This document shows, piece after piece, positions 1-33,157 of a stretch of 64,000 bases of DNA (the first letter of the stretch is position 1; the number at the start of each line of letters is the position of its first letter). The stretch lies in IMG/VR virus record IMGVR_UViG_3300021963_000035, positions 32,001-96,000 of that record; one strand, 5' to 3'. The notes under the pieces are model-generated. The model was not told the DNA's origin. It saw only the letters and a list, made by a program, of their open reading frames with translations, and did not search any database. This DNA is from a virus. The position numbers and the translations under genes are program-made.

Positions 1-3000
1 TTGCCATTGGCTAGAATTTAAAGTTATAGAACTTCCGTCGCCGTTAATATTCTCAGTGGCTTTCCACAGTTTTCCATTATATACAACTACTTGACCGGTT
101 AGGTAAGTAGCTGATGGACTGAACGTGCCTCTATAAGCAGAATTAACTCCGCCTGCATCATAAGAACTTACAATCAACCATTGTTCATCATTAGTAACAT
201 GAAGATTTGATCCGTACTTGTTAGTTAATTCCGATAAGAACTCGTTAGGTGGGATTAATATCTGCGAACTCTTTAGTCCGTCAGTATCTGGTTTATAAAC
301 AACAACAGCTGAATTTCCATATAAGGAAGCAATCGCTTGTTTTCTTTCTGGTACATAGAATACACTAGTTCCTGCATAAAGAGGAGAAGTTGTACCAAAT
401 TCAAGCACTTTATTATAGGTGTAAACAGAACTTTGTTTTTGTAATACTTCCCAATTTCCTTCTTCGTCATCATCTATAAAAATAGTATCGCCGACTTTTA
501 ATCTTGCTATTGAATTATAATCAGTATCATTCGAAGTTGCAAAACGGCATTCAACAAATCTACCTATATCGATAGCTGAACTATCTTCTGGCAATATCGG
601 TGTTGATGAAGTACCTGCAATTACAAAAGAGAATCTATCAACTGATTTTACTTTATAAAATCCAGTTAAGTTTGTAATACTGGTTAATCCTACGTATTCG
701 TCTACAGACAGATCATGAGGAAAATTTAATACAACAGTAACGTCATTGGTTATATCATCTTTAGTTACAGAATTTAGATCAAATGAAGTTCTTGTATATC
801 TTAGAATACTCCATTGTATATCTTCTGTGTCAAATGTTACCCAAACATGATCTCCGTATTTGACTTCACTTATATTCAAGTCAGGTATATTATCTCTAGA
901 TGATATTGCCCATTGTACCTGATCTACTGCAACATACCCTGCGGTATGAGAAGGAAGTTCGTATTTTTTCTGAGGATTAACATCTGTACTAAACGGAACT
1001 AGTGATATTGAATAAGAATTATTATCAACTCTTATATACTGATCACTTACATCCTGAGAAGGAACATTATTTGTTAACAGTATTGGTTGAGGATTTAATC
1101 TAAATTTTCCAGAATTAAGATAAAACTCAACTTCGTTAAATTGATCTACTCCGCCGAATGTTCCTAGTCTAAATGCCCATTCTTCTTTTAATTGAATACT
1201 ATCAAGTTTTCCATTGCTTAACTTATCAAAGACCTTGGTAATAGAATTAGGAGTTCCTTTTTCTTTTATAAAGCCTTGATACAATTTAAACTGACTGATA
1301 TCATTTTGTGTAAGATTATCAAGATAATCTCTCTTTTGATATCCAATTGCATGTCTTGCTAGGTCTCGCTGGCTTGTGCCAACGCCTTCGGCATCAAGAT
1401 CATAATAATCTTCAAATTGATTAATCTTATAATCAAAGTTTGCTACTAATCCTTTTTCAGGAGTATAATCTAACTTAGTCCACTTTGTTTCGTCGAAAGA
1501 TACTGAACCTACTTGCTTTATTTGGCTGGTCCAATAAAACTCTCTATACTTGACGATGTCTCCTAACTTATAGTCTGTATACTCTTGCCATTTCTTAATA
1601 TTAACATTATCAAACAAGAATCCTGGGCTAGTATAATCTCCATCCCAATCAGTTGTTCTATAACCTATAACTTTCAATCTATCTTGTCTATATCCAGATG
1701 TCTTATCGTACAGAACATCGTTAAAGACTGTCCTGTCGTCAAAAATAACGACGTGCTCTTTTAGCACTAAATTTAAAGTTATAAAATATATCCCGTCAGA
1801 TGTGTCAACTACATCGACAGTCAGAGTCTGATAATCTCTAATAACATTTATATTAGACACTGGTAGTAATGTACCGTCACTCTTTAAAACAGAATAATCG
1901 TAAAAACTATCTAATAAAGATTCGGATACACCTACTCCAAATTTAAATACAAACTTTTTAGCATTAGGACTTAAACTTAATAAAGATCCCTCTGGCCAAT
2001 TATGCTTGGTCCAGAACATAAATTCTTTAACGCTGGTAAACCAATCATTTACTGTTGATAACTCGTAGTTGAATTCATCAAACTGTATGCCTATGCTCTT
2101 AAGATATTGTTCGTATCCAAATATAAAATCAATTACTTCTTGTACAGTGCCTAATACTGTCGAATATGGCAACACGCTAAGTTGTGAAAAATCAAATGTA
2201 TTACGCTTTAATGCTTCTACAGCCCCTTCTTGTGGTAAAGAAGGAATTTGCTTATAATATTCAGATTCGAAACTTGCACCGGCAGTGTGACTCGATATAA
2301 CTCTATAATACTGATTATTATATTTGACTATCTCACCCAAAGCATAATATTTGTTTTCAGTCCAAGTAACAAATGAGGAGGTGATTCCGCCAACGCTGAT
2401 TAATGGATCGCTTTGATTTGATATGGCTTGGTAATAATTAAAATAAGGTCGAACTTTGTCATATCCGTTTATCTTCCAACCTGCTGCGGTTTTTTCTATT
2501 AAAACTGCGCTATAAGATATGGAAGAGAACGGTGATCCTACATTAAAAATTATCTTAAAGTTTTCCTTAGGAACAAATACACTCCTACTAGTTGACTTAG
2601 GATTTTTACTATCTAAGATGTATTGTTGCTGAGATTCATCTACAAACCCAGAAATTTTGTTTGATAGTTTTACATCAATGCTGTTAAATTTGTTTTTTAT
2701 TTCTAGGTAATTCTGAGTTTTCGATTTTGAATAATCTATCAAATAATTTAATAAGCCTGCTGTTTGATTAGAATCAATATCAGGATAGACTATATCTTCG
2801 ATCTTAACAAATTCTTGAGTAGGTTGGTAGATCGGTTGGCCGATTATATTTTTAGATATTCTAAATGTATCTAACGATTTTGTAATAAAATCAAACGGTC
2901 TTAATAAACATAATGTTGATATTACTACAAAAGGATATTCGGAACTTTTTCTCCAGGCATTTTCTACAGGAGCAATATCGCCAAACTTGTACTCTCCTTT

Positions 3001-6000
3001 AGCAAGGACTAAACTAAATTCTTGGGCTAGATTGGATTCTAATGGAGATTGTAGATCTCCGTTTTCATTAACTGGAAGATGTTGTAACAGCGTAGGTCTC
3101 TTATATCTATCGTACTCGCCTGCTCTCGGACCTTGTCGTATAATACCGTCTTTTAAATCTTCCCATAATAATAAATTTCCGCTAGTATATGGGGCTGGTC
3201 CGTATTCCTCTTCCCACCATGTTGGTTTTTCACTAAACCCTAACATTTCCCAAGGACATACGTGAGGTCTATCAGTATCATAGAACCAATCATAGATACC
3301 TCTCCAATAACCTTTAAGATTAATTGTTTGGGTAGATTCTGTCATGTTAGAATAATTGTATGTGAACGAATTACCGTTCTCAAAATAATCATTCTTAATA
3401 TAATCAATGTTTGCTGCCGAAACCCATTTTAAGAAATAGGACGCCATTACAGAATTTGTCTCATCTTTGTTGAATAAAGAATTTCCGTAAAAACCTCCTA
3501 GGTTTTCGTCAATGTTAAAAACTGTTTCCTCATACGATGTTTTGATATTGTTGTAAATTCGTTTTTCTAATTCCAACAATAACTCATCTCTAAAATCATC
3601 ATAAGCAATTGTTACACTACCATCGTGACCTTGAATTACTTTTGTAGGAGTAACATAAGTGTCGTCTACATAAATTCTAGGAGTGAATTTTTTATATAAA
3701 CCTAACTTAGTCGGTGTAGGCGGAATAAAATTAAATGCAGTAGTTGAATACTGACGGATTTCTATAATGTCGCCTTCATTTAAATCTATTGTAACATTTA
3801 TAAATCCAAACGTAGAATCAAAAGTATATTCGCGATCTACTAACAATTGTACACCATTGTGATATACGTAAATGGCGTTTCTAGAAAGGGTCGAAAGATC
3901 AAATTTTTCTGTTAAGGCAAATACTTTTATCTGTCTTTCTACTGTATATTTGAATCCGAAATATGCTCCGCTACCTATCATGTCAGAATCGGCAAACGGA
4001 GAGTCAGCTGTTTTAACTTTGTTTAATTCTTTAAAAATTTGATCAACAAAATCTACTGGATTTAGATCATAATTCAGTTTAACTGCAAGAGTTAAAAAAT
4101 TATTTCTAAATTCAGAATATGATCTCCTAGCAAAATCTAAAGATTTAATAATATTTGTATTCTTATCACAGATCAATGTAATAGCGATCGGAGACAAACT
4201 AGCATGTTTGAGGAATCGTCGACCGTAATGTTGGTAATCTGATATATCTCTAAGATTAGAAGTTCCTGGAAAATTCCCACTAAACTCTTCGGTTATCTCT
4301 ACCATCGATCTTAAATGATCTAACGCTTGCCCAAAGGTAAATGAAGTTAGATCCTGATTTAATGGATTATTTTCTAATGTTGGAGGAATTTCATAATACC
4401 CTTGGTCAGGTACTGCATCAGTCCAAATTTTAATTGTAATAACTTCGCCGGCACTAAATGTATCTTCAAAAGTAAAGTCTCTATTATTAAGACCAGATCT
4501 AACATATCGGCCATTGTAAATATTTCCGTTTCTATAAAAAACGATTTTTTCTCTAGTAACCTGTTCCCAGAAAATAGTGTTAAATCTAATAGTATTTGTG
4601 CTAATACTTAATACAATACTATCAATAACTGGTTGTAGATATAGCGTATCAGTTTCAATCCAGGTATTTGAATATGTTACATTAGTTGAATCAACATTGG
4701 TTCTTAAAAATCCGCTGCTGATTTTCTTTTCTACTATTGATGTTGTTTGGTACTGGAACATATCACTGTCCCAAGTAGCATCAAATAATATATCACCTAT
4801 GTTATCAATATTAAGATAACTCAGGCTAAATCCTAATTCAACGTCAGATACACTTGATCCGACCTTATATGTTAATACTGTAGTTCCTTTGAACTTGCTT
4901 GACGGATAATAGGTTTCATTAGAAAAACTATAACCATCGCTGTCATATACATCAAATAAAGGAGCTTGATTTACTGCTGTCTTTAGTTGGCTTAAAGTCC
5001 AGGTAGTACCATCAAAATGGTACATTCTTCCGCCGTTGTCTTGTCCAAACTTTACAAGAACACAATCGCCAGATACACTGACTGCGTCCTCTTCTTCAAC
5101 TAGATGAATCTGTTTTCCTGTGATTCCGCTGTACTGAGTCTTTATAAAAGTTACTCTATAGATTTTATTTTTTACTAAACTATCAGTATCAGCTGTGAAT
5201 AAAACTCTGGCGCCTTCAAATAAATCAACGCCTTCAATGTTATAACCTGCAGAACCTTCTATAATACTAAATGCGTCAGATGTAAACACATCGATAAGGT
5301 CAATATCTTTCTTAGCGAAGCTACCGTGATTGAATAATTGAAGATCTGGTTTAAATTCTATAATTGGTCTTTTAGCCCTAGCCGACTCTGGTAAATCAAA
5401 AGTTGTGCCATTAAAAGTATGAGAGTATTCTAGAACACTCTTATGAAACCATCTATTGTATCTACTCCAAGGATTACTATCTACACTAGATTTATTAATA
5501 GTAATATAATCTTTGTCTAGAGGATATGAAGTAGCATCATCAAAAGGAACAGTGTCAAATCCTTCGTTATCAAAAACTATTTCGCCAGTTGAAGCTATTA
5601 ATGCTGGCGTCGATATTGTGTCAAATCTAATTAATCGAATTCCAACGCCGACACCTTCAACTAACCAAGTGCCTTTAGAATACTCTTCAGGAAATACTTG
5701 TCCAGAAAACTGGACTACTAATCCATTAGTAAATGTTACATTATTTGAACTCTTATAAGTTAACTTTTTTAATATTTCTTTTTCTACATCAAGTGTTGTG
5801 TTTTCATTAATATTCTTAACTAAGAATCTTCCTGTTCTTCCCGGTTCTTGATCGCTAACATAAAAAAGAATATCAGGAGATCCGTAAGGAACTGTGAAAG
5901 TAATCTTTCCAACTTCGATTCCGTTGTTAGTTACACCGGCACTATAATAATTTCTTTTATCTAAAGTAGTTTGTTCCCAATCCTGACTGTTTGAGTCAAT

Positions 6001-6768
6001 TGAGCTACCGTCACCGTTAATGTTAGTTTTTGCTCTCCATAACTTGCCAGCAAATTCTACAACATCTCCAACACGATAATACATGTTAGGATTAAACTCC
6101 CCAGACACATATTCTAAACCATTTGATGTTCTAATAGAAAATTTGTTTCTAGGAGAATTTACATCAAAGATATATGTCTGTCCTCTGTATAGTACAACAT
6201 CAGGATTTGCTGTTAATCCGTCCGGATTAAAAACCCAAGCAGGTAAATCTCCAACTGTTTGTGCTCTAACTTTATATTCGGATGTTATATTCTGGGCTTG
6301 ACCTTCTACTGTGACCACAGGAGGTCCATTGACTGCCCAATAGTATTCTCTAAAGTTTGAAAACTTATCCCAGTCAATCGGAGGATTCCAGGAATAGCTT
6401 TCTGTTTGTGTGATTAAATTATCTTTCTCGATAGAGTTACCAAAAAAGTTTAGTTGATTTTTAAAGTCTAGATAATCGTAAAATGTCGAAACATTATCGT
6501 CATCGTCAACAGTTACTATGCCTGGCTCTAATTGATATCTACTTCTAAGAGTATTATCAGTATCTAGGTAAACATCAGTGCTATTATAGGTCTTACCGTA
6601 TCTTCTGCCTACAAAACCAGATAATTTTTCTAACACTCCCGGTTGTACAAGAGGATCAAGTGTTCCTCCTAAAAACTTAGAGTTGTTACCTGTCTGAAAG
6701 ATCTTTGGTAGGAGATCAACTGTCCTTCTGATCTTAATACCACTTTGTGTAAAAACTTTTTCGGTCAT
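1..6768 (-). CDS. Giant virion/baseplate wedge protein, partial (at least 2256 aa, runs off the window start)
   Basis: ATG at 6768, 1 nt after the gp6 stop, reading MTEKVFTQSGIKIRRTVDLLPKIFQT. The same frame reads ...NGDGSSITLNSSQWQ at position 1. Its absence from the ORF track fits an ORF with no stop before the edge. Function inferred from position after gp6. Confidence 0.8.
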   Translation of the reverse strand, partial: MTEKVFTQSGIKIRRTVDLLPKIFQTGNNSKFLGGTLDPLVQPGVLEKLSGFVGRRYGKTYNSTDVYLDTDNTLRSRYQLEPGIVTVDDDDNVSTFYDYLDFKNQLNFFGNSIEKDNLITQTESYSWNPPIDWDKFSNFREYYWAVNGPPVVTVEGQAQNITSEYKVRAQTVGDLPAWVFNPDGLTANPDVVLYRGQTYIFDVNSPRNKFSIRTSNGLEYVSGEFNPNMYYRVGDVVEFAGKLWRAKTNINGDGSSIDSNSQDWEQTTLDKRNYYSAGVTNNGIEVGKITFTVPYGSPDILFYVSDQEPGRTGRFLVKNINENTTLDVEKEILKKLTYKSSNNVTFTNGLVVQFSGQVFPEEYSKGTWLVEGVGVGIRLIRFDTISTPALIASTGEIVFDNEGFDTVPFDDATSYPLDKDYITINKSSVDSNPWSRYNRWFHKSVLEYSHTFNGTTFDLPESARAKRPIIEFKPDLQLFNHGSFAKKDIDLIDVFTSDAFSIIEGSAGYNIEGVDLFEGARVLFTADTDSLVKNKIYRVTFIKTQYSGITGKQIHLVEEEDAVSVSGDCVLVKFGQDNGGRMYHFDGTTWTLSQLKTAVNQAPLFDVYDSDGYSFSNETYYPSSKFKGTTVLTYKVGSSVSDVELGFSLSYLNIDNIGDILFDATWDSDMFQYQTTSIVEKKISSGFLRTNVDSTNVTYSNTWIETDTLYLQPVIDSIVLSISTNTIRFNTIFWEQVTREKIVFYRNGNIYNGRYVRSGLNNRDFTFEDTFSAGEVITIKIWTDAVPDQGYYEIPPTLENNPLNQDLTSFTFGQALDHLRSMVEITEEFSGNFPGTSNLRDISDYQHYGRRFLKHASLSPIAITLICDKNTNIIKSLDFARRSYSEFRNNFLTLAVKLNYDLNPVDFVDQIFKELNKVKTADSPFADSDMIGSGAYFGFKYTVERQIKVFALTEKFDLSTLSRNAIYVYHNGVQLLVDREYTFDSTFGFINVTIDLNEGDIIEIRQYSTTAFNFIPPTPTKLGLYKKFTPRIYVDDTYVTPTKVIQGHDGSVTIAYDDFRDELLLELEKRIYNNIKTSYEETVFNIDENLGGFYGNSLFNKDETNSVMASYFLKWVSAANIDYIKNDYFENGNSFTYNYSNMTESTQTINLKGYWRGIYDWFYDTDRPHVCPWEMLGFSEKPTWWEEEYGPAPYTSGNLLLWEDLKDGIIRQGPRAGEYDRYKRPTLLQHLPVNENGDLQSPLESNLAQEFSLVLAKGEYKFGDIAPVENAWRKSSEYPFVVISTLCLLRPFDFITKSLDTFRISKNIIGQPIYQPTQEFVKIEDIVYPDIDSNQTAGLLNYLIDYSKSKTQNYLEIKNKFNSIDVKLSNKISGFVDESQQQYILDSKNPKSTSRSVFVPKENFKIIFNVGSPFSSISYSAVLIEKTAAGWKINGYDKVRPYFNYYQAISNQSDPLISVGGITSSFVTWTENKYYALGEIVKYNNQYYRVISSHTAGASFESEYYKQIPSLPQEGAVEALKRNTFDFSQLSVLPYSTVLGTVQEVIDFIFGYEQYLKSIGIQFDEFNYELSTVNDWFTSVKEFMFWTKHNWPEGSLLSLSPNAKKFVFKFGVGVSESLLDSFYDYSVLKSDGTLLPVSNINVIRDYQTLTVDVVDTSDGIYFITLNLVLKEHVVIFDDRTVFNDVLYDKTSGYRQDRLKVIGYRTTDWDGDYTSPGFLFDNVNIKKWQEYTDYKLGDIVKYREFYWTSQIKQVGSVSFDETKWTKLDYTPEKGLVANFDYKINQFEDYYDLDAEGVGTSQRDLARHAIGYQKRDYLDNLTQNDISQFKLYQGFIKEKGTPNSITKVFDKLSNGKLDSIQLKEEWAFRLGTFGGVDQFNEVEFYLNSGKFRLNPQPILLTNNVPSQDVSDQYIRVDNNSYSISLVPFSTDVNPQKKYELPSHTAGYVAVDQVQWAISSRDNIPDLNISEVKYGDHVWVTFDTEDIQWSILRYTRTSFDLNSVTKDDITNDVTVVLNFPHDLSVDEYVGLTSITNLTGFYKVKSVDRFSFVIAGTSSTPILPEDSSAIDIGRFVECRFATSNDTDYNSIARLKVGDTIFIDDDEEGNWEVLQKQSSVYTYNKVLEFGTTSPLYAGTSVFYVPERKQAIASLYGNSAVVVYKPDTDGLKSSQILIPPNEFLSELTNKYGSNLHVTNDEQWLIVSSYDAGGVNSAYRGTFSPSATYLTGQVVVYNGKLWKATENINGDGSSITLNSSQWQ

Positions 6769-16806: not shown

Positions 16807-17817
16807 ATGAGTTTATTCAAAAAAGCAGCCTGTTTTACTGATATACATTTTGGTTTAAAAGGCGGTAGCCGAACACACAACAACGATTGTGAAGAATTTG
16901 TTAAATGGTTTTGCGACACTGCAAAAGCTGAAGGCTGCGATACTGTCATATTCCTAGGTGATTGGCATCATAATAGGTCGGCAACAGATGTAAGCACAAT
17001 GAATTACACTGTTAGTAATCTCAAACGACTAAATGATAACTTTGATCAAGTGTTTGTTATCACTGGCAACCACGATCAATTCTACAAAGATAAACGAGAA
17101 ATCAACAGTTTAGAGTTCGGCAGACTACTTCCAAACATAACACTAGTAGATAAAACTATCACTTCTGGTGATGTTACCATTATGCCCTGGTTAGTCGGAG
17201 ACGAATGGAAAGATGTTCCAAAGATTAAAAGTCAATACATCTTTGGACACTTAGAATTACCTTCATTTTACATGAATGCAATGGTGCAGATGCCCGATCA
17301 CGGACAATTACAAAGAGATCACTTTGTAAATCAAGAGTACGTGTTCACTGGACATTTCCATAAGCGTCAAGAAGCTAACAATATTGTCTACATAGGCAAT
17401 GCTTTTCCACACAACTACGCTGATAGTGGCGACGACGACCGAGGCATGATGATTTTAGAATGGGGTAAGAAGCCCGTTTATAAAAATTGGCCAGGACAGC
17501 CTGTATATCGAACATACAAGTTAAGTCAAATTATGGAAAATCCAGATGCATTGTTACATGAAAAAATGCATTGTAGGGTTAGCATCGACATACAGATTTC
17601 TTTTGAAGAAGCTAATCTTATTAAAGAAACGTTTATTCCCCAATACAATTTAAGAGAACTGATGTTAATACCTGAAAAAGAGCAAATTGCCGACAACTTT
17701 GAAATGGGGGATATTACATTTGAAAGTGTTGACAGTATTGTTATAGGTCAACTAAATGCTATCGAATCAGAATCATTCGATAAGAAACTGCTGCTGGACA
17801 TATATCAAAATCTATGA
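16807..17817 (+). CDS. gp47: Recombination endonuclease subunit (Mre11/SbcD-like)
   Basis: Metallophosphoesterase motifs DIHFG, GDWHH, GNHD, GHFH. Confidence 0.93.
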   Translation: MSLFKKAACFTDIHFGLKGGSRTHNNDCEEFVKWFCDTAKAEGCDTVIFLGDWHHNRSATDVSTMNYTVSNLKRLNDNFDQVFVITGNHDQFYKDKREINSLEFGRLLPNITLVDKTITSGDVTIMPWLVGDEWKDVPKIKSQYIFGHLELPSFYMNAMVQMPDHGQLQRDHFVNQEYVFTGHFHKRQEANNIVYIGNAFPHNYADSGDDDRGMMILEWGKKPVYKNWPGQPVYRTYKLSQIMENPDALLHEKMHCRVSIDIQISFEEANLIKETFIPQYNLRELMLIPEKEQIADNFEMGDITFESVDSIVIGQLNAIESESFDKKLLLDIYQNL

Positions 17818-19595
17818 TTAAAATAAAAAATTTAACTGTAAAAAACTTTATGAGTGTGGGTAATCAAACCCAGGCTGTAGATTTTGACAAAGGATCGTTA
17901 ACACTAGTATTAGGTGAGAATCTAGATCTAGGCGGAGACGGCACTGGTGCTAGGAACGGAACCGGTAAGACTACTATAGTAAATGCGTTGAGTTATGCGA
18001 TTTACGGCAATGCCCTAACAAATATTAAAAAAGATAATCTGATCAACAAAATCAACAATAAAAATATGTTGGTCACTGTTAGCTTTGATAAAAACGGTGT
18101 AGAGTATCACATTGAACGCGGTCGCAAACCTAACTTATTAAAACTTAGCATTAACGGTACAGAGTTACAGCCCATAGAACAAGACGAAAGCCAGGGCGAT
18201 TCTAGAGAAACACAAAAAGAAATAGAATCAGTATTCGGTATGACTCACGATATGTTCAAGCATCTCGTGGCTCTTAACACTTATACAGAACCGTTCCTGT
18301 CAATGAAAGCAGGTGATCAACGTGCAATCATTGAACAACTGCTGGGCATTACTATACTATCTGAAAAAGCAGATGCTTTAAAAGAAGGTATCAAGTTAAA
18401 CAAAGAATTAATTACTCAAGAAAATACAAAAATTGAAACTATTAAAGCGTCTAATGCTAGAATACAGCAAAGTATTGATGCATTAGAGCGTAAACAAACA
18501 TTGTGGTTACAGACCAAAGATGATACTGTAAGCAAATTAGAAAAAGACATCAAAGCATTGCAGCTTATAGACATTGATCTTGAAATTAACAATCAGAAGT
18601 TGTTAACTGATTGGAACAAGAACAAGAAAGAAATCGATAACCTAAACAGCCTATTGGCAAAACAGATAACAGCATTAGAAAAAGAACAACGGATCTTAGA
18701 CAAATTAAACAAGGAATTAGAATCTCTTGCAGAGCACAAGTGCCATAGCTGTGGGCAAGACCTTCACGACAGCAAACATCAGGAAATGATGGATGCTAAA
18801 CAGGCGCAGATACAAGAAAGTCTCAATAATGTAACTGCACATCAAGAAGAAATTACTGTGTTCAAAGAAGCATTAACTTTGCTAGGAGAACTAGGACCTT
18901 GTCCTAATGTAGTATATGACAGTTTAGAACAGGCTCTTAATCATAGAAACACATTAAGCAACTTAGAAAAAAATCTTGAAACTAAGAAAACAGAAAAAGA
19001 TCCATATCAGGATCAGATCGATGAATTAAAAAACACCGCTGTGCAGAACATTAACTGGAATAACATCAATGAACTAACAAAGATTAAAGATCATCAAGAG
19101 TTTTTATTAAAATTATTAACTAACAAAGATAGTTTTATTAGGAAACGCATCATCGATCAGAATCTAAGCTTCTTAAATGCTAGACTATCGTTCTATCTAG
19201 ATAGAATTGGACTTCCTCACCAGGTTACTTTCCAGAATGACCTATCAGTGTTGATTACACAGCTAGGACAAGATTTAGACTTTGACAATCTAAGTCGCGG
19301 AGAGCGCAATAGATTGATTCTAAGTCTAAGTTGGGCTTTCCGCGATGTGTGGGAAAATCTATATCAGAACATTAATTTGTTGTTTATTGATGAACTAGTT
19401 GATTCCGGAATGGATTCTAGTGGTGTTGAGAGTGCAATAGCTGTATTAAAGAAGATGACTAGAGAGCGTAATAAGAACGTTTTCCTGATCAGTCACCGGG
19501 ATGATCTAACTAATCGGGTCAATCAGGTACTACGTGTTATCAAAGAAAACGGCTTTACATCATATGCAACGGATGTGGATATTGTAGACAAATGA
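17814..19595 (+). CDS. gp46: Recombination ATPase subunit (Rad50/SbcC-like)
   Basis: Walker A NGTGKTT, coiled coil with CHSC zinc hook, signature LSRGE, Walker B LFIDE. Confidence 0.93.
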   Translation: MIKIKNLTVKNFMSVGNQTQAVDFDKGSLTLVLGENLDLGGDGTGARNGTGKTTIVNALSYAIYGNALTNIKKDNLINKINNKNMLVTVSFDKNGVEYHIERGRKPNLLKLSINGTELQPIEQDESQGDSRETQKEIESVFGMTHDMFKHLVALNTYTEPFLSMKAGDQRAIIEQLLGITILSEKADALKEGIKLNKELITQENTKIETIKASNARIQQSIDALERKQTLWLQTKDDTVSKLEKDIKALQLIDIDLEINNQKLLTDWNKNKKEIDNLNSLLAKQITALEKEQRILDKLNKELESLAEHKCHSCGQDLHDSKHQEMMDAKQAQIQESLNNVTAHQEEITVFKEALTLLGELGPCPNVVYDSLEQALNHRNTLSNLEKNLETKKTEKDPYQDQIDELKNTAVQNINWNNINELTKIKDHQEFLLKLLTNKDSFIRKRIIDQNLSFLNARLSFYLDRIGLPHQVTFQNDLSVLITQLGQDLDFDNLSRGERNRLILSLSWAFRDVWENLYQNINLLFIDELVDSGMDSSGVESAIAVLKKMTRERNKNVFLISHRDDLTNRVNQVLRVIKENGFTSYATDVDIVDK

Positions 19596-19831
19596 GCTAC
19601 GAAGCACATGATCGATTGATCAAGGCCTTTCAGGAATACTTTAAGGCCAAAATGAAATTTGACAAAGAAAATTCAGACAAAGGCGGCATAGAGGCAAGAT
19701 TTTGGCTATCAGAAATACGTAACGAGGCAAGCGACTTAAGAATAGAAATTCAAAAAGACAGAAAAGAACGCAGAAAGGCTAGATTAGGCAAAAACGGCAG
19801 GCCAAGAAAGGACGGCACGATTAGAGATTAG
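19592..19831 (+). CDS. Small basic helical protein, possibly Hc1 histone-H1-like family
   Basis: ATGA overlap with gp46; AFQEYF....KF......GG.EAR..LSEI......LR.EI pattern; basic tail. Confidence 0.5.
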   Translation: MSYEAHDRLIKAFQEYFKAKMKFDKENSDKGGIEARFWLSEIRNEASDLRIEIQKDRKERRKARLGKNGRPRKDGTIRD

Positions 19832-19845
19832 AACTAAAATAGTAA

Positions 19846-20280
19846 ATGCAGTGGACATATCAGAATACACTTGTGGAAGAATTGCCGGAAGATTGTATAG
19901 GATTCGTCTATCTGATCACCAATCTAATCACTGGACGCAAATACATAGGCAAAAAACTGGCACAGTTTAAACGCACAAAACCACCACTCAAAGGCAAAAA
20001 ACTTAAAAGACGCAGCACTGTAGAAAGCGATTGGCGCGAATATTGGGGCTCATCTGATAAGTTACAAGCAGATGTACAAACACTAGGTCCAGAAAAATTC
20101 ACCAGAGAAATACTTTATTACTGCAAAAGCAAGGCTGAAATGAGCTATCTTGAGGCTAGAGAACAGTTTGAACGTAAGGTTTTGGAAACAGACGAGTACT
20201 ATAATGGCATTATTAATGTCAGAGTAGGCGGTTCAAACATACTTAGGCAACGTCTAGAAGAACATAAAAAGGCAAAATAA
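19846..20280 (+). CDS. GIY-YIG endonuclease (T4 endonuclease II/DenA-like, stand-alone domain)
   Basis: GFVYLITN...RKYIGKK, WREYWGSS, YLE..EQ and YYNG motifs; 144 aa. Confidence 0.88.
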   Translation: MQWTYQNTLVEELPEDCIGFVYLITNLITGRKYIGKKLAQFKRTKPPLKGKKLKRRSTVESDWREYWGSSDKLQADVQTLGPEKFTREILYYCKSKAEMSYLEAREQFERKVLETDEYYNGIINVRVGGSNILRQRLEEHKKAK

Positions 20281-20640
20281 CGCGGTTTAGGGCTTGCGCA
20301 GGCCAATGTCGTGCGCCTATGATAAGGGGTTTAACTACGCCCGGACGGAAATCTCTCGCCGCAAAGAGTACTCAACCACTATCCTTAACAGGACGTTAAT
20401 GGCAAAGACCTTGCTGTATGGTTGTTTGGAGAGCGAAATAGGCAAAAAGAGGGGAGAAAAACCCCACGTCTACATAGATGATAGCAGATTTATGTAGGCC
20501 GCCGTTGTAATAAGACGGAGCTCGAGGTACCGGACAACCGCCTCTGTAACGCTCTACTGCTGTGTGACATTGTGCAACTCGGATAATGTTATCTTTGCCC
20601 GGCCTGGGCAAAGTGTGACTGAACAATCTGGATAATATTA
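20281..20640 (+). ncRNA. Candidate large structured non-coding RNA, family not recognised
   Basis: GC-richer intergenic region with about nine helices, G-U pairs on the + strand, and a 7 bp loop pseudoknot (20481-20487 with 20557-20563). Confidence 0.6.
20562..20640 (+). repeat. Two imperfect direct repeats GTGTGAC..CAA..GGATAAT(G/A)TTA flanking a hairpin
   Basis: Copies at 20562-20591 and 20613-20640, separated by CTTTGCCC/GGGCAAAG (20593-20613). Confidence 0.75.
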
Positions 20641-20641
20641 A

Positions 20642-20730
20642 TAGTGCTTCGCACTAATTATTCTCTACTATTAAAAAGAAGATAAATGTGTTTGAGCGAA
20701 GCGAAAAACACAGATGAGCGTAGCTCATCT
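20642..20730. other. Cluster of GC-GNA-GC triloop hairpins (possible single-strand/origin signals)
   Basis: GCGAAGC on minus at 20646-20652, GCGAAGC on plus at 20696-20702, GCGTAGC on plus at 20718-20724, each within a longer stem. Confidence 0.55.
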
Positions 20731-20775
20731 TCGAAGAATGAAAATAAATAATATATCTGTTTTAGGAATAATAAC

Positions 20776-22005
20776 ATGCGAATAACTGATGTCCTCGTCG
20801 AAACGAATACAAATGCCAAGTCACGATTAGATGAAAAACCAATGGGGATCCTAAGTAAATTAGGAAACAAAGCCCTTTCTAAGTTGGGTAGTGGTCGTGC
20901 TGCTGGTCGCCTAAGCACTGGTGATCTAGCTAACAAAATACACAAAGAATATGATACCTATCTAGGTAAAACAGGACAAGAGCCTAGCAAAGAATCTGTA
21001 TTGGCTTTCCTACAATTCAAGGGATATCCTACGCAAGGCGCAGAAAAGATCCTAAACAGTCCCGAAGCACAAGGTCAAGCACCTACTGGACCACTAGGCA
21101 AGGGTAGTCCTGGTGCTGCTCGTCCAGGTGCTGGTAAAGCCAGTGCTGCTCCTGGCGCAGATAAGATTGAACCTAAAATGGGAGATGAGCCGGCAGGTGA
21201 TGCAACAGCTCCAACTGATGGTAAGACAGAACCAACAATGGGGGCAGAAAAACCTAATTTTAGTACAGGTCCTCAACCTACAATGAAAGGTGCAGACGGT
21301 AAAGCATTACCAACAGGTATTCCTAGTACAACAGATCCACTAGCAGCTATACGTAAAAATGCAGGACTACCTCCTGCTGCTGATAAACCTGCTGCACCGG
21401 CAGCAGATGTTCCAGGTGCTCCACCAGGAGATGACAAGAAAGCTGCTGCTAAATCACGTATCGATCAGATGAAAAAAGATAAAGCAGCAGGTACTGGATT
21501 CGGAGGCTTTGTTAAAGGTGCTAAGGCCAAAGGTCTAGTAACGGCAGGTATGTATGAAGCAACAGCTATTCCTAGCTCTGTGATAGACAAAGCTCTGTTA
21601 AAGGCTGCACAAGATGCAGAACGCATGGGTATTGGTCAAGCATTAGGAGATCCAGAAGACGATCAACAAGGTGCTCCAGCTGGTCCTATGAGCAAAGGCG
21701 GTGCAGGTGGTGGACAACAAGGCGGATTCATGGCCGGGGTCAAACAAGGAATGGGTGGCGGCGCAGCAGGTGATGAAGATCCTGCTAAGGTTAAAGGTAG
21801 TTTGAATATAAATCAGCTGTCGTCTCTGATGCCAGGTGTTGACCCTAGACAACTACAACAGGCTGTAGCACGTATTAAAGCTGGTCAAGAGCCAAGTCGT
21901 ATGCATATGCAGACATTGGCACAGGCATTTACTGCTATTGTGCAAGCTGATCCACAGACTACACAACAGATCATGATGCTACTCAAGCGTGTAAGTGCTG
22001 CTTAA
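20776..22005 (+). CDS. Low-complexity Gly/Ala/Pro-rich protein, possible internal head protein
   Basis: 409 aa; TAAATA (20745-20750) and SD AGGA upstream; N-terminus MRITDVLVE resembles a prohead-protease-cleaved leader. Confidence 0.6.
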   Translation: MRITDVLVETNTNAKSRLDEKPMGILSKLGNKALSKLGSGRAAGRLSTGDLANKIHKEYDTYLGKTGQEPSKESVLAFLQFKGYPTQGAEKILNSPEAQGQAPTGPLGKGSPGAARPGAGKASAAPGADKIEPKMGDEPAGDATAPTDGKTEPTMGAEKPNFSTGPQPTMKGADGKALPTGIPSTTDPLAAIRKNAGLPPAADKPAAPAADVPGAPPGDDKKAAAKSRIDQMKKDKAAGTGFGGFVKGAKAKGLVTAGMYEATAIPSSVIDKALLKAAQDAERMGIGQALGDPEDDQQGAPAGPMSKGGAGGGQQGGFMAGVKQGMGGGAAGDEDPAKVKGSLNINQLSSLMPGVDPRQLQQAVARIKAGQEPSRMHMQTLAQAFTAIVQADPQTTQQIMMLLKRVSAA

Positions 22006-32416: not shown

Positions 32417-32686
32417 ATGCAGGTTGAAAGTGATAAAGATTTTCCTGAATTAAGAAAGCAGATACAAGTCTGGAAGAAACGTTTTCCTTTGTTTGCACAC
32501 GATGTCCATAAAATTGAACACATAGTAGAAAATCACATACAAAATTTTTCCATAGCTGGTGTGCATTACAGGCAAACTAAGAGCAAAAAATATCTAGAAC
32601 TTGCCCAAAAAGAGTTAGATGAAATCAACAGAGTTATCGGCACAGTTGAAAAAATTGAACTGATGGCATTACTTTCCCAAAGATAA
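32417..32686 (+). CDS. Hypothetical protein (89 aa; start moved to ATG 32417)
   Basis: The track start at 32366 would translate through the terminator; TAAATA lies 4 nt before ATG 32417. Confidence 0.7.
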   Translation: MQVESDKDFPELRKQIQVWKKRFPLFAHDVHKIEHIVENHIQNFSIAGVHYRQTKSKKYLELAQKELDEINRVIGTVEKIELMALLSQR

Positions 32687-32773
32687 ATACAATGTCTAAA
32701 TGAGCTTGCATAGTGCAAGACTTATGCAGTACCCACTGCGTAGACCTAAAACGTCAACATAAGGAGAAAACAA
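32684..32773 (+). promoter_or_regulatory. Late promoter plus structured 5' leader
   Basis: TAAATA 32684-32689; stems CTTGCA/TGCAAG and TATGCAGT/ACTGCGTA; SD AAGGAG. Confidence 0.6.
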
Positions 32774-33157
32774 ATGGGACGTCCATTAAGAAAAGATGTC
32801 AGGGGAACTGACGTAATCAATACACCAGTCAGTGCAACTGGTATAACAGTAAAATTCCATGACGGTACAGCATTAAGATCCGACGGAATTATTATTAAAC
32901 AGCGCGGATCAAAGACTTTCCTTGTAGCAAGGGTTGGAACTCCAAACACAAGATTTACCTGTGTTCTAAAGAACGGTACACCAAGTGCAGCTGGCGAAAT
33001 GCAACTAACTGGTTCAACATCGGGCATGCTTGATGCCGGTTTAGTAAACTGCGCTAAAATTACCAAACGTGTATTCACTAATTTCAGCGGTACACGTTAC
33101 ACATGGTATTTAGAATCTGACTCATCAGCAGACTATATTGTATTAACAGCTATCTAA
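32774..33157 (+). CDS. Putative virion structural protein (127 aa)
   Basis: Strong SD, late promoter, first gene of the appendage cluster. Confidence 0.7.
   Translation: MGRPLRKDVRGTDVINTPVSATGITVKFHDGTALRSDGIIIKQRGSKTFLVARVGTPNTRFTCVLKNGTPSAAGEMQLTGSTSGMLDAGLVNCAKITKRVFTNFSGTRYTWYLESDSSADYIVLTAI

What the first reader, a model, noticed from the sequence alone, without database searches (positions are those of the whole stretch)
19846..20640. Stand-alone GIY-YIG nuclease followed immediately by a ~350 nt pseudoknotted candidate RNA
Seen: the longest non-coding gap in the window starts at the nuclease stop codon, is GC-richer than its surroundings and folds densely. Helices: GCGCA/TGCGC (20296/20312); CTCT/AGAG (20353/20365); a three-way junction closed by CAACCA/TGGTTG (20373/20419); GGGG/CCCC (20451/20462); an 11 bp stem 20468-20478/20489-20499 with two G-U pairs, whose loop ATAGCAG pairs with CTGCTGT (20557-20563); CCGTT/GACGG; GAGG..CGG-ACAA-CCG-CCTC; and CGCTCT (20550-20555), which can pair with either 20430-20435 or 20517-20521. 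Most stem imperfections are G-U on the + strand, pointing to a + strand RNA co-transcribed with the nuclease. Known: nuclease ORF + structured RNA pairs underlie HEARO/IscB-omegaRNA systems and group I intron homing. This protein is only 144 aa and has no separate DNA-recognition domain. I do not recognise group I/II intron, RNase P or tmRNA cores. Inference: an undescribed GIY-YIG-associated RNA (RNP partner or guide, ribozyme, or replication primer RNA).
Basis: partly seen in the sequence, partly recalled or inferred. Interest (0 to 1): 0.88.

Follow-up and report, generated by a model that had tools for sequence, protein, structure and literature searches.

The report
Extended Polynucleobacter-1 twin-box phage RNA
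The gene-free stretch behind a small nuclease gene of this uncultured freshwater T4-like phage encodes a real, knotted non-coding RNA of about 375-440 bases; only its first third is catalogued (Rfam Polynucleobacter-1), the rest carries one fast-changing 7-letter word twice, and neither its job nor any working tie to the nuclease is shown.

Summary
Window 20281-20775 is the longest ORF-free gap, and it folds on the + strand.

- **Known part.** 20291-20427 is a full-length match to Rfam RF01718, Polynucleobacter-1 (88 bits, cut-off 37).
- **Uncatalogued part.** Conservation and covariation continue to about 20640, and then to a 3' two-hairpin module ending at 20730.
- **Structure.** On 59 distinct relatives, 76 pairs in 18 helices are 96% paired, against 37-42% in slid controls. 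50 pairs show double changes.
- **Twin boxes.** GGAUAAU at 20581-87 and 20630-36 are identical in 58 of 59 relatives, although they changed at least 23 times. No partner was found in cis or in phage genomes.
- **Nuclease.** The SegE-type GIY-YIG gene lies upstream in 83 of 85 syntenic loci. Its family (PHROG 447, cyanophage PSSM2_218) occurs in 380 cultured phages, and none of those checked has the RNA. No residue of it tracks the boxes.
- **Prior knowledge.** The 2010 description already placed the motif downstream of PSSM2_218 homologues.

It is an RNA gene of its own, of unknown function, and not a shown nuclease partner. Earlier agents of this scan found the same RNA in at least 8 other genomes.

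The parts
19846..20280 (+). Small stand-alone GIY-YIG nuclease gene (144 aa; SegE-type catalytic domain only; PHROG 447 / cyanophage T4-GC 213 family). It is a syntenic upstream neighbour and is not shown to be part of the RNA's function.
   Evidence: Pfam PF19835 at 6e-36 over residues 3-123. phrog_447 at 3.3e-39. 43% identity to PSSM2_218. The catalytic motifs GFVY..Y.GKK, RE, EAREQF and YYNG are conserved in 55 relatives.
20291..20427 (+). 5' domain, which is Rfam RF01718 Polynucleobacter-1. Helices: P1 20296-300/20312-16, P2 20324-26/20340-42, P3 20351-56/20365-69, P4 20373-78/20419-24 (closes the three-way junction), P5 20382-84/20391-93, P6 20398-403/20413-18.
   Evidence: cmscan gives 88 bits against a cut-off of 37, over model positions 1-141. 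The helices are 96-100% paired, with double changes in P1, P2, P3, P4 and P6.
20428..20567 (+). Uncatalogued central domain. It holds P7 20452-54/20463-65, P8 20468-79/20488-99, P9 20517-21/20551-55, P10 20524-27/20541-44, pseudoknot PK1 20483-87/20557-61 and pseudoknot PK2 20504-08/20534-38.
   Evidence: nhmmer matches in 78 relatives, down to E 1e-58. MI scan. Pair counts: PK1 98% paired with 4 of 5 pairs doubly changed; PK2 99% with 3 of 5; P9 91% with 3 of 5.
20575..20588 (+). Twin box 1 (xx-ACUC-GGAUAAU-G; variable core 20581-20587). GUGUGAC precedes it at 20562-68.
   Evidence: It covaries as identical letters with box 2 at five positions, MIp 0.70-0.97. Haplotype table. Tree-based event counts.
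20593..20613 (+). Hairpin P11 (CUUUGCCC-GGCCU-GGGCAAAG) between the boxes. Its sequence is highly conserved.
   Evidence: 89% of cells are paired, and most pairs are invariant. See also alignment A1.
20624..20637 (+). Twin box 2 (xx-AUCU-GGAUAAU-A; variable core 20630-20636). GUGUGAC precedes it at 20613-19. A20618 makes a covarying long-range pair with U20482.
   Evidence: The pair 20482/20618 is UA in 47 and CG in 10 relatives.
20642..20666 (+). Variable UUCG-loop hairpin followed by a U-rich tail. It is a possible 3' end of the core RNA (about 375 nt) and is absent in some relatives.
   Evidence: Terminator-like site on the + strand at 20642-20656. The region is variable and gappy in A1.
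20688..20730 (+). 3' module behind an A-rich linker. P12 is 20688-93/20706-11, with tandem G-A, a G-C clamp and a GNRA-type loop. P13 is 20712-19/20723-30.
   Evidence: The pair 20693/20706 is UA in 34 and CG in 24 relatives. In P13 all 8 pairs show double changes and 97% of cells are paired.
20744..20750 (+). ATAAATA, a T4-type late-promoter-like motif for the next gene, which starts at 20776. It marks the 3' limit of the RNA unit.
   Evidence: The motif lies 0-13 nt after P13 in 22 of 59 relatives, against a background of 0.013 per 70 nt. The same motif precedes the freshwater-2 leader at 32682-89. Reading it as a late promoter is an inference from T4 biology.

Best explanation
**What is shown.**
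- 20291 to about 20665 (core), or to 20730 with the 3' module, is a gene for a large structured non-coding RNA read from the + strand.
- Its 5' third is the orphan Rfam motif Polynucleobacter-1. The rest has two pseudoknots, a long-range pair and about eight further helices, and is equally conserved but uncatalogued.
- It is a single-copy gene of a clade of uncultured freshwater T4-like phages. It sits in a fixed slot: gp47-gp46-(variable)-small nuclease-RNA-(variable)-baseplate gene.

**What is inferred.**
- The RNA is made as the tail of the early/middle transcript that runs through the upstream gene. The upstream stop codon lies only about 5-60 nt before P1, whatever that gene is.
- The transcript ends before the late promoter of the next gene.
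- It acts in trans as a folded RNA that displays two copies of one short, probably single-stranded word.
- Each box is read in the same orientation by the same kind of partner. Most likely this is base pairing with two copies, or a repeated site, of a nucleic acid that is not encoded nearby. Otherwise it is a two-site protein.

**The nuclease.** The GIY-YIG nuclease is a conserved neighbour with its own, much wider distribution. It is not a demonstrated partner.
For: - **Family membership.** 88 bits against a cut-off of 37, over the full model. All 20 relatives tested also pass, at 67-121 bits.
- **Extension.** 78 loci match 20428-20775, down to E 1e-58. Identity to the window stays at 0.5-0.9 as far as about 20640 and rises again at 20680-20740.
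- **Structure.** 76 pairs are 96.4% paired, against 37-42% when slid. 50 pairs have double changes. The covariation score is 0.416 against 0.05-0.08, and 0 of 500 shuffles reach it.
- **Strand.** G-U cells 299 against A-C cells 39. Fold z -3.26 on the + strand against -0.92 on the - strand.
- **Not coding.** Compensatory changes are seen throughout, and no Pfam or PHROG family applies.
- **Twin boxes.** The core is identical in 58 of 59 relatives. There are 9 haplotypes and at least 23-24 changes on a tree built without the box columns. Position R5 flips 13 times in both boxes, and 8 of 8 independent pairs go the same way, p 0.008.
- **No cis partner.** None is found from -250 to +560.
- **Late promoter.** A late-promoter-like motif follows directly after P13 in 22 of 59 relatives.
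- **Copy number.** One copy in the 148.6-kb record.
- **Nuclease independence.**
Against: - Transcript ends, and even transcription itself, are inferred.
- The 3' end is ambiguous: about 20665 or 20730.
- P13 has no U-tract on the + strand.
- No trans partner for the boxes was found. Extra 11-mer complements in 3 of 5 phage genomes lie in unrelated ORFs and fit chance.
- Identical boxes could also be explained by a protein reader or by an unknown copying process.
- The relatives were collected with a pattern taken from the 5' domain. Members with a diverged 5' domain, or in other contexts, were therefore not sampled.
Confidence: 0.6

Rival explanations
1. The RNA is the partner or guide of the GIY-YIG nuclease. 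The domain-only nuclease would get its target recognition from the RNA, with the twin boxes as two guide segments.
For: - The protein lacks any DNA-binding domain.
- It lies directly upstream of the RNA in about 75 of 85 loci.
- The boxes are short, variable and probably unpaired.
- Two identical guides would fit an inverted-repeat DNA target cut on both strands. This is inference only.
Against: - The protein family is present in 380 cultured phages.
- Six such loci and five whole genomes lack the RNA.
- All RNA loci are syntenic relatives, so linkage is not independent evidence.
- Other genes are inserted between the two in 8 loci, and a PDDEXK nuclease takes the place of GIY-YIG in L011.
- No residue of the protein covaries with the boxes; normalised MI is at most 0.4.
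- No complement or inverted repeat of the box was found in the phage genomes.
Confidence: 0.06
2. The RNA gene is a conserved landing pad for selfish nuclease genes. Free-standing homing-type endonucleases settle beside highly conserved RNA genes and cut the allele of rival phages, as T4 SegB does in the tRNA cluster. This would explain the neighbourhood but not the RNA's own job.
For: - The upstream gene is a GIY-YIG nuclease in most loci and a PDDEXK nuclease in L011, and extra ORFs are inserted at the same junction.
- The RNA has long invariant runs that would suit a target site.
- The SegB precedent comes from established knowledge of T4, not from a test here.
Against: - The GIY-YIG gene is present in 83 of 85 loci.
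- It is as conserved as the core gene gp46: 53-88% against 48-76% identity. That points to vertical inheritance, not the patchy pattern of homing genes.
- It has no DNA-binding domain.
- Its family is near-universal in T4-like cyanophages, where it sits in other contexts.
Confidence: 0.15
3. It is a cis-acting element of the surrounding mRNA. This could be a 3' UTR stabiliser or processing platform for the upstream early transcript, or a leader controlling the downstream gene.
For: - Rfam's authors rated it a possible cis-regulator.
- The upstream stop codon lies only about 5-60 nt before P1.
- The 3' module of two hairpins looks like an end or processing signal.
Against: - About 350 nt with two pseudoknots is far more than known UTR elements need.
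- The downstream gene differs between loci, is often on the other strand, and has its own late-promoter-like motif behind the RNA.
- The upstream gene is also not constant.
Confidence: 0.12
4. It is a ribozyme. The size, knots and long invariant single-stranded runs reflect a catalytic core, and the two boxes are two substrate or processing sites recognised in the same way.
For: - The complexity is comparable to large ribozymes: 18 helices, 2 pseudoknots and invariant joining regions.
- Identical boxes would fit two sites handled by one active site. This is inference.
Against: - No Rfam ribozyme family matches, even at E up to 5.
- No internal guide complementary to the boxes exists in the RNA.
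- There are no flanking exons.
Confidence: 0.08
5. It is a replication origin or primer RNA, or a DNA-level element with the boxes as iterons for a DNA-binding protein.
For: - There are two direct repeats 49 bp apart whose sequence differs between phages, as iterons do.
- An A-rich linker lies at 20667-20687.
Against: - The excess of G-U over A-C cells (299 against 39) and the compensatory changes in 50 pairs point to a folded + strand RNA, not duplex DNA.
- There are only two repeats.
- The composition profile shows no skew change at the site.
Confidence: 0.03

Closest known systems
Polynucleobacter-1 RNA motif (Rfam RF01718; Weinberg et al. 2010, Genome Biol 11:R31, PMC2864571)
   Same: The window's 20291-20427 matches the whole 141-position model at 88 bits. 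It has the same helices, the same freshwater setting, and the same upstream gene family (PSSM2_218 homologues), as stated in the paper's supplement.
   Different: The catalogued motif stops at the three-way junction. Here the conserved, covarying RNA runs on for about 240-300 nt more. That part holds two pseudoknots, the twin boxes and a 3' module. The authors found it in no purified phage, whereas here it sits in T4-like phage contigs.
Large structured non-coding RNAs of bacteria and phages with unknown or recently found roles (GOLLD, ROOL, OLE, HEARO/omega RNA)
   Same: Its size is several hundred nucleotides. It has many helices and pseudoknots, it was found by comparative genomics, and it is phage-borne like GOLLD and ROOL.
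   Different: No sequence or model similarity was found. It is not near tRNA genes. Unlike HEARO, its neighbouring protein is not restricted to loci that carry the RNA. None of those RNAs is known to me to carry two identical co-changing boxes.
T4 SegB and other Seg-type free-standing GIY-YIG homing endonucleases
   Same: It has a SegE-type GIY-YIG catalytic domain. It lies next to a stable-RNA gene in a T4-like phage, as SegB lies in the tRNA cluster (from my own knowledge of T4).
   Different: At 144 aa it has no DNA-binding domain. It is present in 83 of 85 relatives and is as conserved as gp46, so it is not sporadic.
Multi-site decoy or recognition RNAs (CsrB/RsmZ GGA repeats; paired nutL/nutR boxA-boxB sites of lambdoid phages)
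   Same: A short word is repeated in one RNA or one genome, each copy next to a hairpin. It is identical within a phage and differs between phages, as nut sites do.
   Different: There are only two copies, inside one large knotted RNA. The GGA is not kept, since AGA and GCA variants occur. No matching reader protein is known. This is a resemblance, not a tested membership.

Membership tests
Rfam RF01718 Polynucleobacter-1 | Covariance-model score at or above the curated gathering score, over the full model | tested here: met
   88 bits against 37, model positions 1-141, E 2e-17 to 1e-20.
Rfam RF01718 Polynucleobacter-1 | The consensus helices are present and kept by compensatory change | tested here: met
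   P1-P6 are 96-100% paired, with double changes in P1, P2, P3, P4 and P6.
Rfam RF01718 Polynucleobacter-1 | Location downstream of a PSSM2_218-type gene (from the original description) | tested here: met
   Text of the supplement. PSSM2_218 is 43% identical to the window's protein, E 6e-26. The gene lies upstream in 83 of 85 loci.
RNA-guided nuclease systems of the IscB/HEARO (omega RNA) type | Protein and RNA occur together as an obligate pair | tested here: not met
   The protein family is in 380 cultured phages. Six loci and five whole genomes lack the RNA. In 9 of 85 loci the RNA is not adjacent to the GIY-YIG gene.
RNA-guided nuclease systems of the IscB/HEARO (omega RNA) type | A variable guide segment that matches targets | tested here: inconclusive
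   The twin boxes vary (9 haplotypes), but they are 7 nt long, internal and duplicated. No target was found in the phage genomes.
Group I intron with a homing endonuclease ORF | A group I core, and a host gene split into exons | tested here: not met
   No Intron_gpI match at E up to 5. The flanking ORFs are complete.
Seg-type free-standing homing endonuclease | GIY-YIG catalytic domain | tested here: met
   PF19835 at 6e-36. The motifs are conserved in 55 relatives.
Seg-type free-standing homing endonuclease | C-terminal DNA-binding region, and patchy presence among close relatives | tested here: not met
   The protein is 144 aa and the domain covers residues 3-123. The gene is present in 83 of 85 loci at 53-88% identity.
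tmRNA / RNase P RNA / tRNA | Detection by ARAGORN or Rfam models | tested here: not met
   No tRNA or tmRNA in the window or in the 148.6-kb record. No Rfam match other than RF01718.

The most novel reading that the evidence does not exclude
The two identical, freely varying boxes are a duplicated programmable recognition code. The knotted RNA would present two copies of one guide, and these would pair with a repeated or inverted-repeat nucleic-acid target in the host or in a rival phage. This would be a new kind of RNA-guided phage device, possibly using the neighbouring domain-only nuclease (GIY-YIG, or PDDEXK in L011) as its effector.
Probability: 0.06. Interest if true: 0.9.

Novelty: new variant of a known kind. 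Interest (0 to 1): 0.55.

Why it matters
Polynucleobacter-1 has been an orphan Rfam entry of 141 positions since 2010. Showing that it is only the head of a 375-440-nt RNA with two pseudoknots moves it into the small class of large, complex bacterial and phage RNAs. Members of that class have repeatedly turned out to be ribozymes, guides or assemblies.

The twin boxes give a concrete handle for experiments.

The work also corrects two points. The 'NAD synthetase' label on the widespread PHROG 447 / T4-GC 213 phage gene is a misnomer for a GIY-YIG nuclease. And the gene's adjacency to the RNA is a matter of shared gene order, not evidence of a nuclease-RNA system.

Tried and rejected
- **Known RNA families for the rest of the gap.** cmscan at E up to 5 over 19800-20900 gave only RF01718. 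ARAGORN gave nothing.
- **Cultured relatives.** blastn of the gap against 50,697 phage records gave no match.
- **Bacterial genomes.** The pattern scan of genome contigs returned 120 loci, and none matched the nhmmer profile. 'Relatives' cannot be drawn for a virus record.
- **A cis partner for the boxes.** MI with APC correction over -250 to +560 found none; the second-best MIp was at most 0.39. A wobble-tolerant match at 20659-67 in the window is not kept in relatives, judged by eye on A1.
- **A trans partner in phage genomes.** 7-mer and 11-mer complements were searched in the window's record and in five other records. Three extra 11-mer complements lie in unrelated ORFs, with about 0.85 expected by chance. 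The homologue search for the 121-aa ORF gave no usable pairs.
- **Direct pairing of box 1 with box 2, a self-palindrome, or local stems closing the boxes.** Registers checked by hand give poor or inconsistent complementarity. Folding of single modules gives no common structure.
- **GIY-YIG residues tracking the box code.** None was found.
It is not conserved.
- **Inserted ORFs between the nuclease and the RNA.** They have no Pfam or PHROG family, apart from a radical-SAM protein in L104.
- **Literature.** Only the 2010 paper names the motif in the held library. A 2023 catalogue of IMG/VR RNAs lists candidates of at most 151 nt and discards overlaps with Rfam.

Full report
**Setting.** The window is part of a 148.6-kb IMG/VR virus record of a T4-like phage.
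- It carries gp47-like (16807-17817) and gp46-like (17814-19595) genes, a 79-aa ORF, the 144-aa GIY-YIG ORF (19846-20280) and a T4-type baseplate gene on the other strand.
- The closest cultured relative by the nuclease protein is Methylophilales phage Melnitz, at 68% identity.

- 20281-20775 is the longest stretch without an ORF of 100 aa or more, once the open frame 1-6768 (-) is counted.
- Its G+C is 0.46-0.48, against 0.33-0.40 in the immediate flanks.
- The + strand of 20428-20660 folds better than all 200 shuffles (z -3.26). The - strand does not (z -0.92).

**Part of it is known.**
- cmscan places Rfam RF01718, Polynucleobacter-1, on 20291-20427 at 88 bits (cut-off 37) over the whole model.
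- Nothing else in Rfam matches the gap, even at E up to 5.
- The supplement of the original paper says that the motif lies downstream of homologues of cyanophage gene PSSM2_218, and that it was found in no purified phage.
- PSSM2_218 is 43% identical to the window's GIY-YIG protein.
- The pairing of this gene with this RNA was therefore already on record in 2010, though the gene was not recognised as a nuclease.

**The RNA is much longer than the catalogued motif.**
- A pattern from the invariant junction found 118 viral contigs.
- 86 of them match the 5' domain. 78 also match 20428-20775, with E down to 1e-58.
- All 20 relatives tested pass the Rfam cut-off.
- In an alignment of 59 distinct sequences (A1), identity to the window stays at 0.5-0.9 up to about 20640. 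It drops in a variable A-rich linker and rises again at 20680-20740.

**Structure.**
- I combined RNAalifold, a mutual-information scan and hand checks into one model of 76 pairs in 18 helices.
- On A1 the model is 96.4% paired, against 37-42% for slid partners. 50 pairs show changes on both sides. The covariation score is 0.416 against 0.05-0.08, and no shuffle out of 500 reaches any measure.
- The model holds these elements:
  - P1 to P6, which are the Rfam domain.
  - P7 and the long hairpin P8.
- PK1, in which the P8 loop (20483-87) pairs with 20557-61.
  - P9, P10, and a second pseudoknot PK2 (20504-08 with 20534-38).
  - Hairpin P11.
  - A single covarying long-range pair, 20482/20618.
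  - The 3' hairpins P12 and P13.
- G-U cells outnumber A-C cells 299 to 39, so the folded molecule is the + strand RNA.
- Only the inner three pairs of CCGUU/GACGG are kept. These compete with PK2 for 20504-06.

**Twin boxes.**
- The sequences xx-ACUC-RGAURAW-G (20575-88) and xx-AUCU-RGAURAW-A (20624-37) are each preceded by GUGUGAC and followed by a hairpin.
- They covary as identical letters at five positions.
- The four-position core is identical in 58 of 59 sequences. Nine haplotypes occur, covering 8 of the 12 combinations of the three freely varying positions.
- On a tree built without the box columns, the core changed at least 23-24 times. Position R5 flipped 13 times in each box, and in 8 of 8 independent pairs the two boxes moved together, p 0.008.
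  - There is no Watson-Crick partner within -250 to +560.
  - There is no conserved complement in the window's record or in five other phage records. The few extra 11-mer complements lie in unrelated ORFs.
  - There is no consistent local stem.
  - No GIY-YIG residue follows the code.
  - Direct pairing between the boxes is poor in every register I tried.
- Identity in the same orientation argues for two equivalent readings by one kind of partner, which remains unknown.

**The nuclease.**
- The protein is a catalytic-domain-only SegE-type GIY-YIG with conserved motifs.
- It belongs to PHROG 447, which is mislabelled 'NAD synthetase'.
- The family occurs in 380 cultured phages, mostly T4-like cyanophages.
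- In Melnitz, phiN3, P-HM1, Moby, ACP17 and a Variovorax phage, protein genes follow it. Neither Rfam nor my profile finds the RNA in those loci or in five of the whole genomes.
- Among the RNA-bearing contigs the gene lies upstream in 83 of 85. All of these share the same gene order, and the nuclease is as conserved as gp46.
- In eight loci one or two other genes lie between the nuclease and the RNA. In L011 a PDDEXK nuclease takes its place.
- The neighbourhood is therefore inherited gene order, and no test here links the protein to the RNA.

**Ends and transcription (inferred).**
- The upstream stop codon lies about 5-60 nt before P1, whichever gene is upstream. This fits read-through from the early genes.
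- A weak terminator-like hairpin with a U-rich tail sits at 20642-66.
- P13 ends at 20730.
- In 22 of 59 relatives, ATAAATA follows P13 within 13 nt, against a background of 0.013. The same motif precedes another late-gene leader in the window.
- The RNA is thus not the late leader of the next gene.
- No read data could be obtained.

**Standing.**
- The held literature names the motif only in the 2010 paper.
- A 2023 catalogue of IMG/VR RNAs is limited to candidates of at most 151 nt and drops overlaps with Rfam.
- Earlier agents of this scan reported the same extended twin-box RNA in at least eight other genomes.
- I saw the extension and the boxes, before reading those notes. My results agree with them.
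  - The link to PSSM2_218 in the original supplement.
  - The event count on a tree.
  - The negative tests for a cis, phage-genome or GIY-YIG reader.
  - The nuclease swap in L011.
  - The late-promoter boundary.

Noticed in passing
window 32682-32776 (+): There is a second Rfam hit, freshwater-2 RNA (RF02980, 59.4 bits against a cut-off of 49.9), at 32704-32776. It lies directly after GATAAATA (late-promoter-like) and before an AAGGAG Shine-Dalgarno sequence and the ORF 32774-33157. It looks like the 5' leader of a late gene.
   Followed up: partly
L011:3963-4484 (+): One relative carries a PDDEXK_15 nuclease (PF24608, 2.5e-29; phrog_244, RusA-like) in the slot directly upstream of the RNA, where 83 other loci carry the GIY-YIG gene.
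   Followed up: partly
A1 columns 326-381 (L006, L049, L054, L064, L069): Five relatives have an AT-rich insertion of about 60 nt, with TATAG repeats, between P10 and the 3' strand of P9. It is an optional extra arm of the RNA.
   Followed up: no
window 19846-20280; L242, L262 and others: The small GIY-YIG family (PHROG 447, cyanophage T4-GC 213, PSSM2_218) is labelled 'NAD synthetase' in many GenBank phage records. Pfam and the conserved motifs show it is a GIY-YIG nuclease domain.
   Followed up: partly
window 20504-20538: GUU at 20504-06 can pair either with GAC at 20514-16 (a local hairpin, with one-sided changes) or with AAC at 20536-38 (pseudoknot PK2, with Watson-Crick double changes). 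The two helices exclude each other, so this may be a conformational switch.
   Followed up: partly
window 1-6768 (-): A single open frame of at least 2256 aa runs off the start of the window. It is a giant phage protein that I did not examine.
   Followed up: no
window 20776-22005 (+): The 409-aa ORF after the RNA has no Pfam or PHROG family. Only 1 of the 85 related loci has a homologue of it (L087), so this slot is variable.
   Followed up: no
L009, L013, L025, L034, L044, L070 (between the GIY-YIG gene and the RNA): ORFs of 257-324 aa with no Pfam or PHROG family are inserted between the nuclease gene and the RNA. In L104 the insert is a radical-SAM/B12-binding protein plus a 151-aa ORF.
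   Followed up: partly
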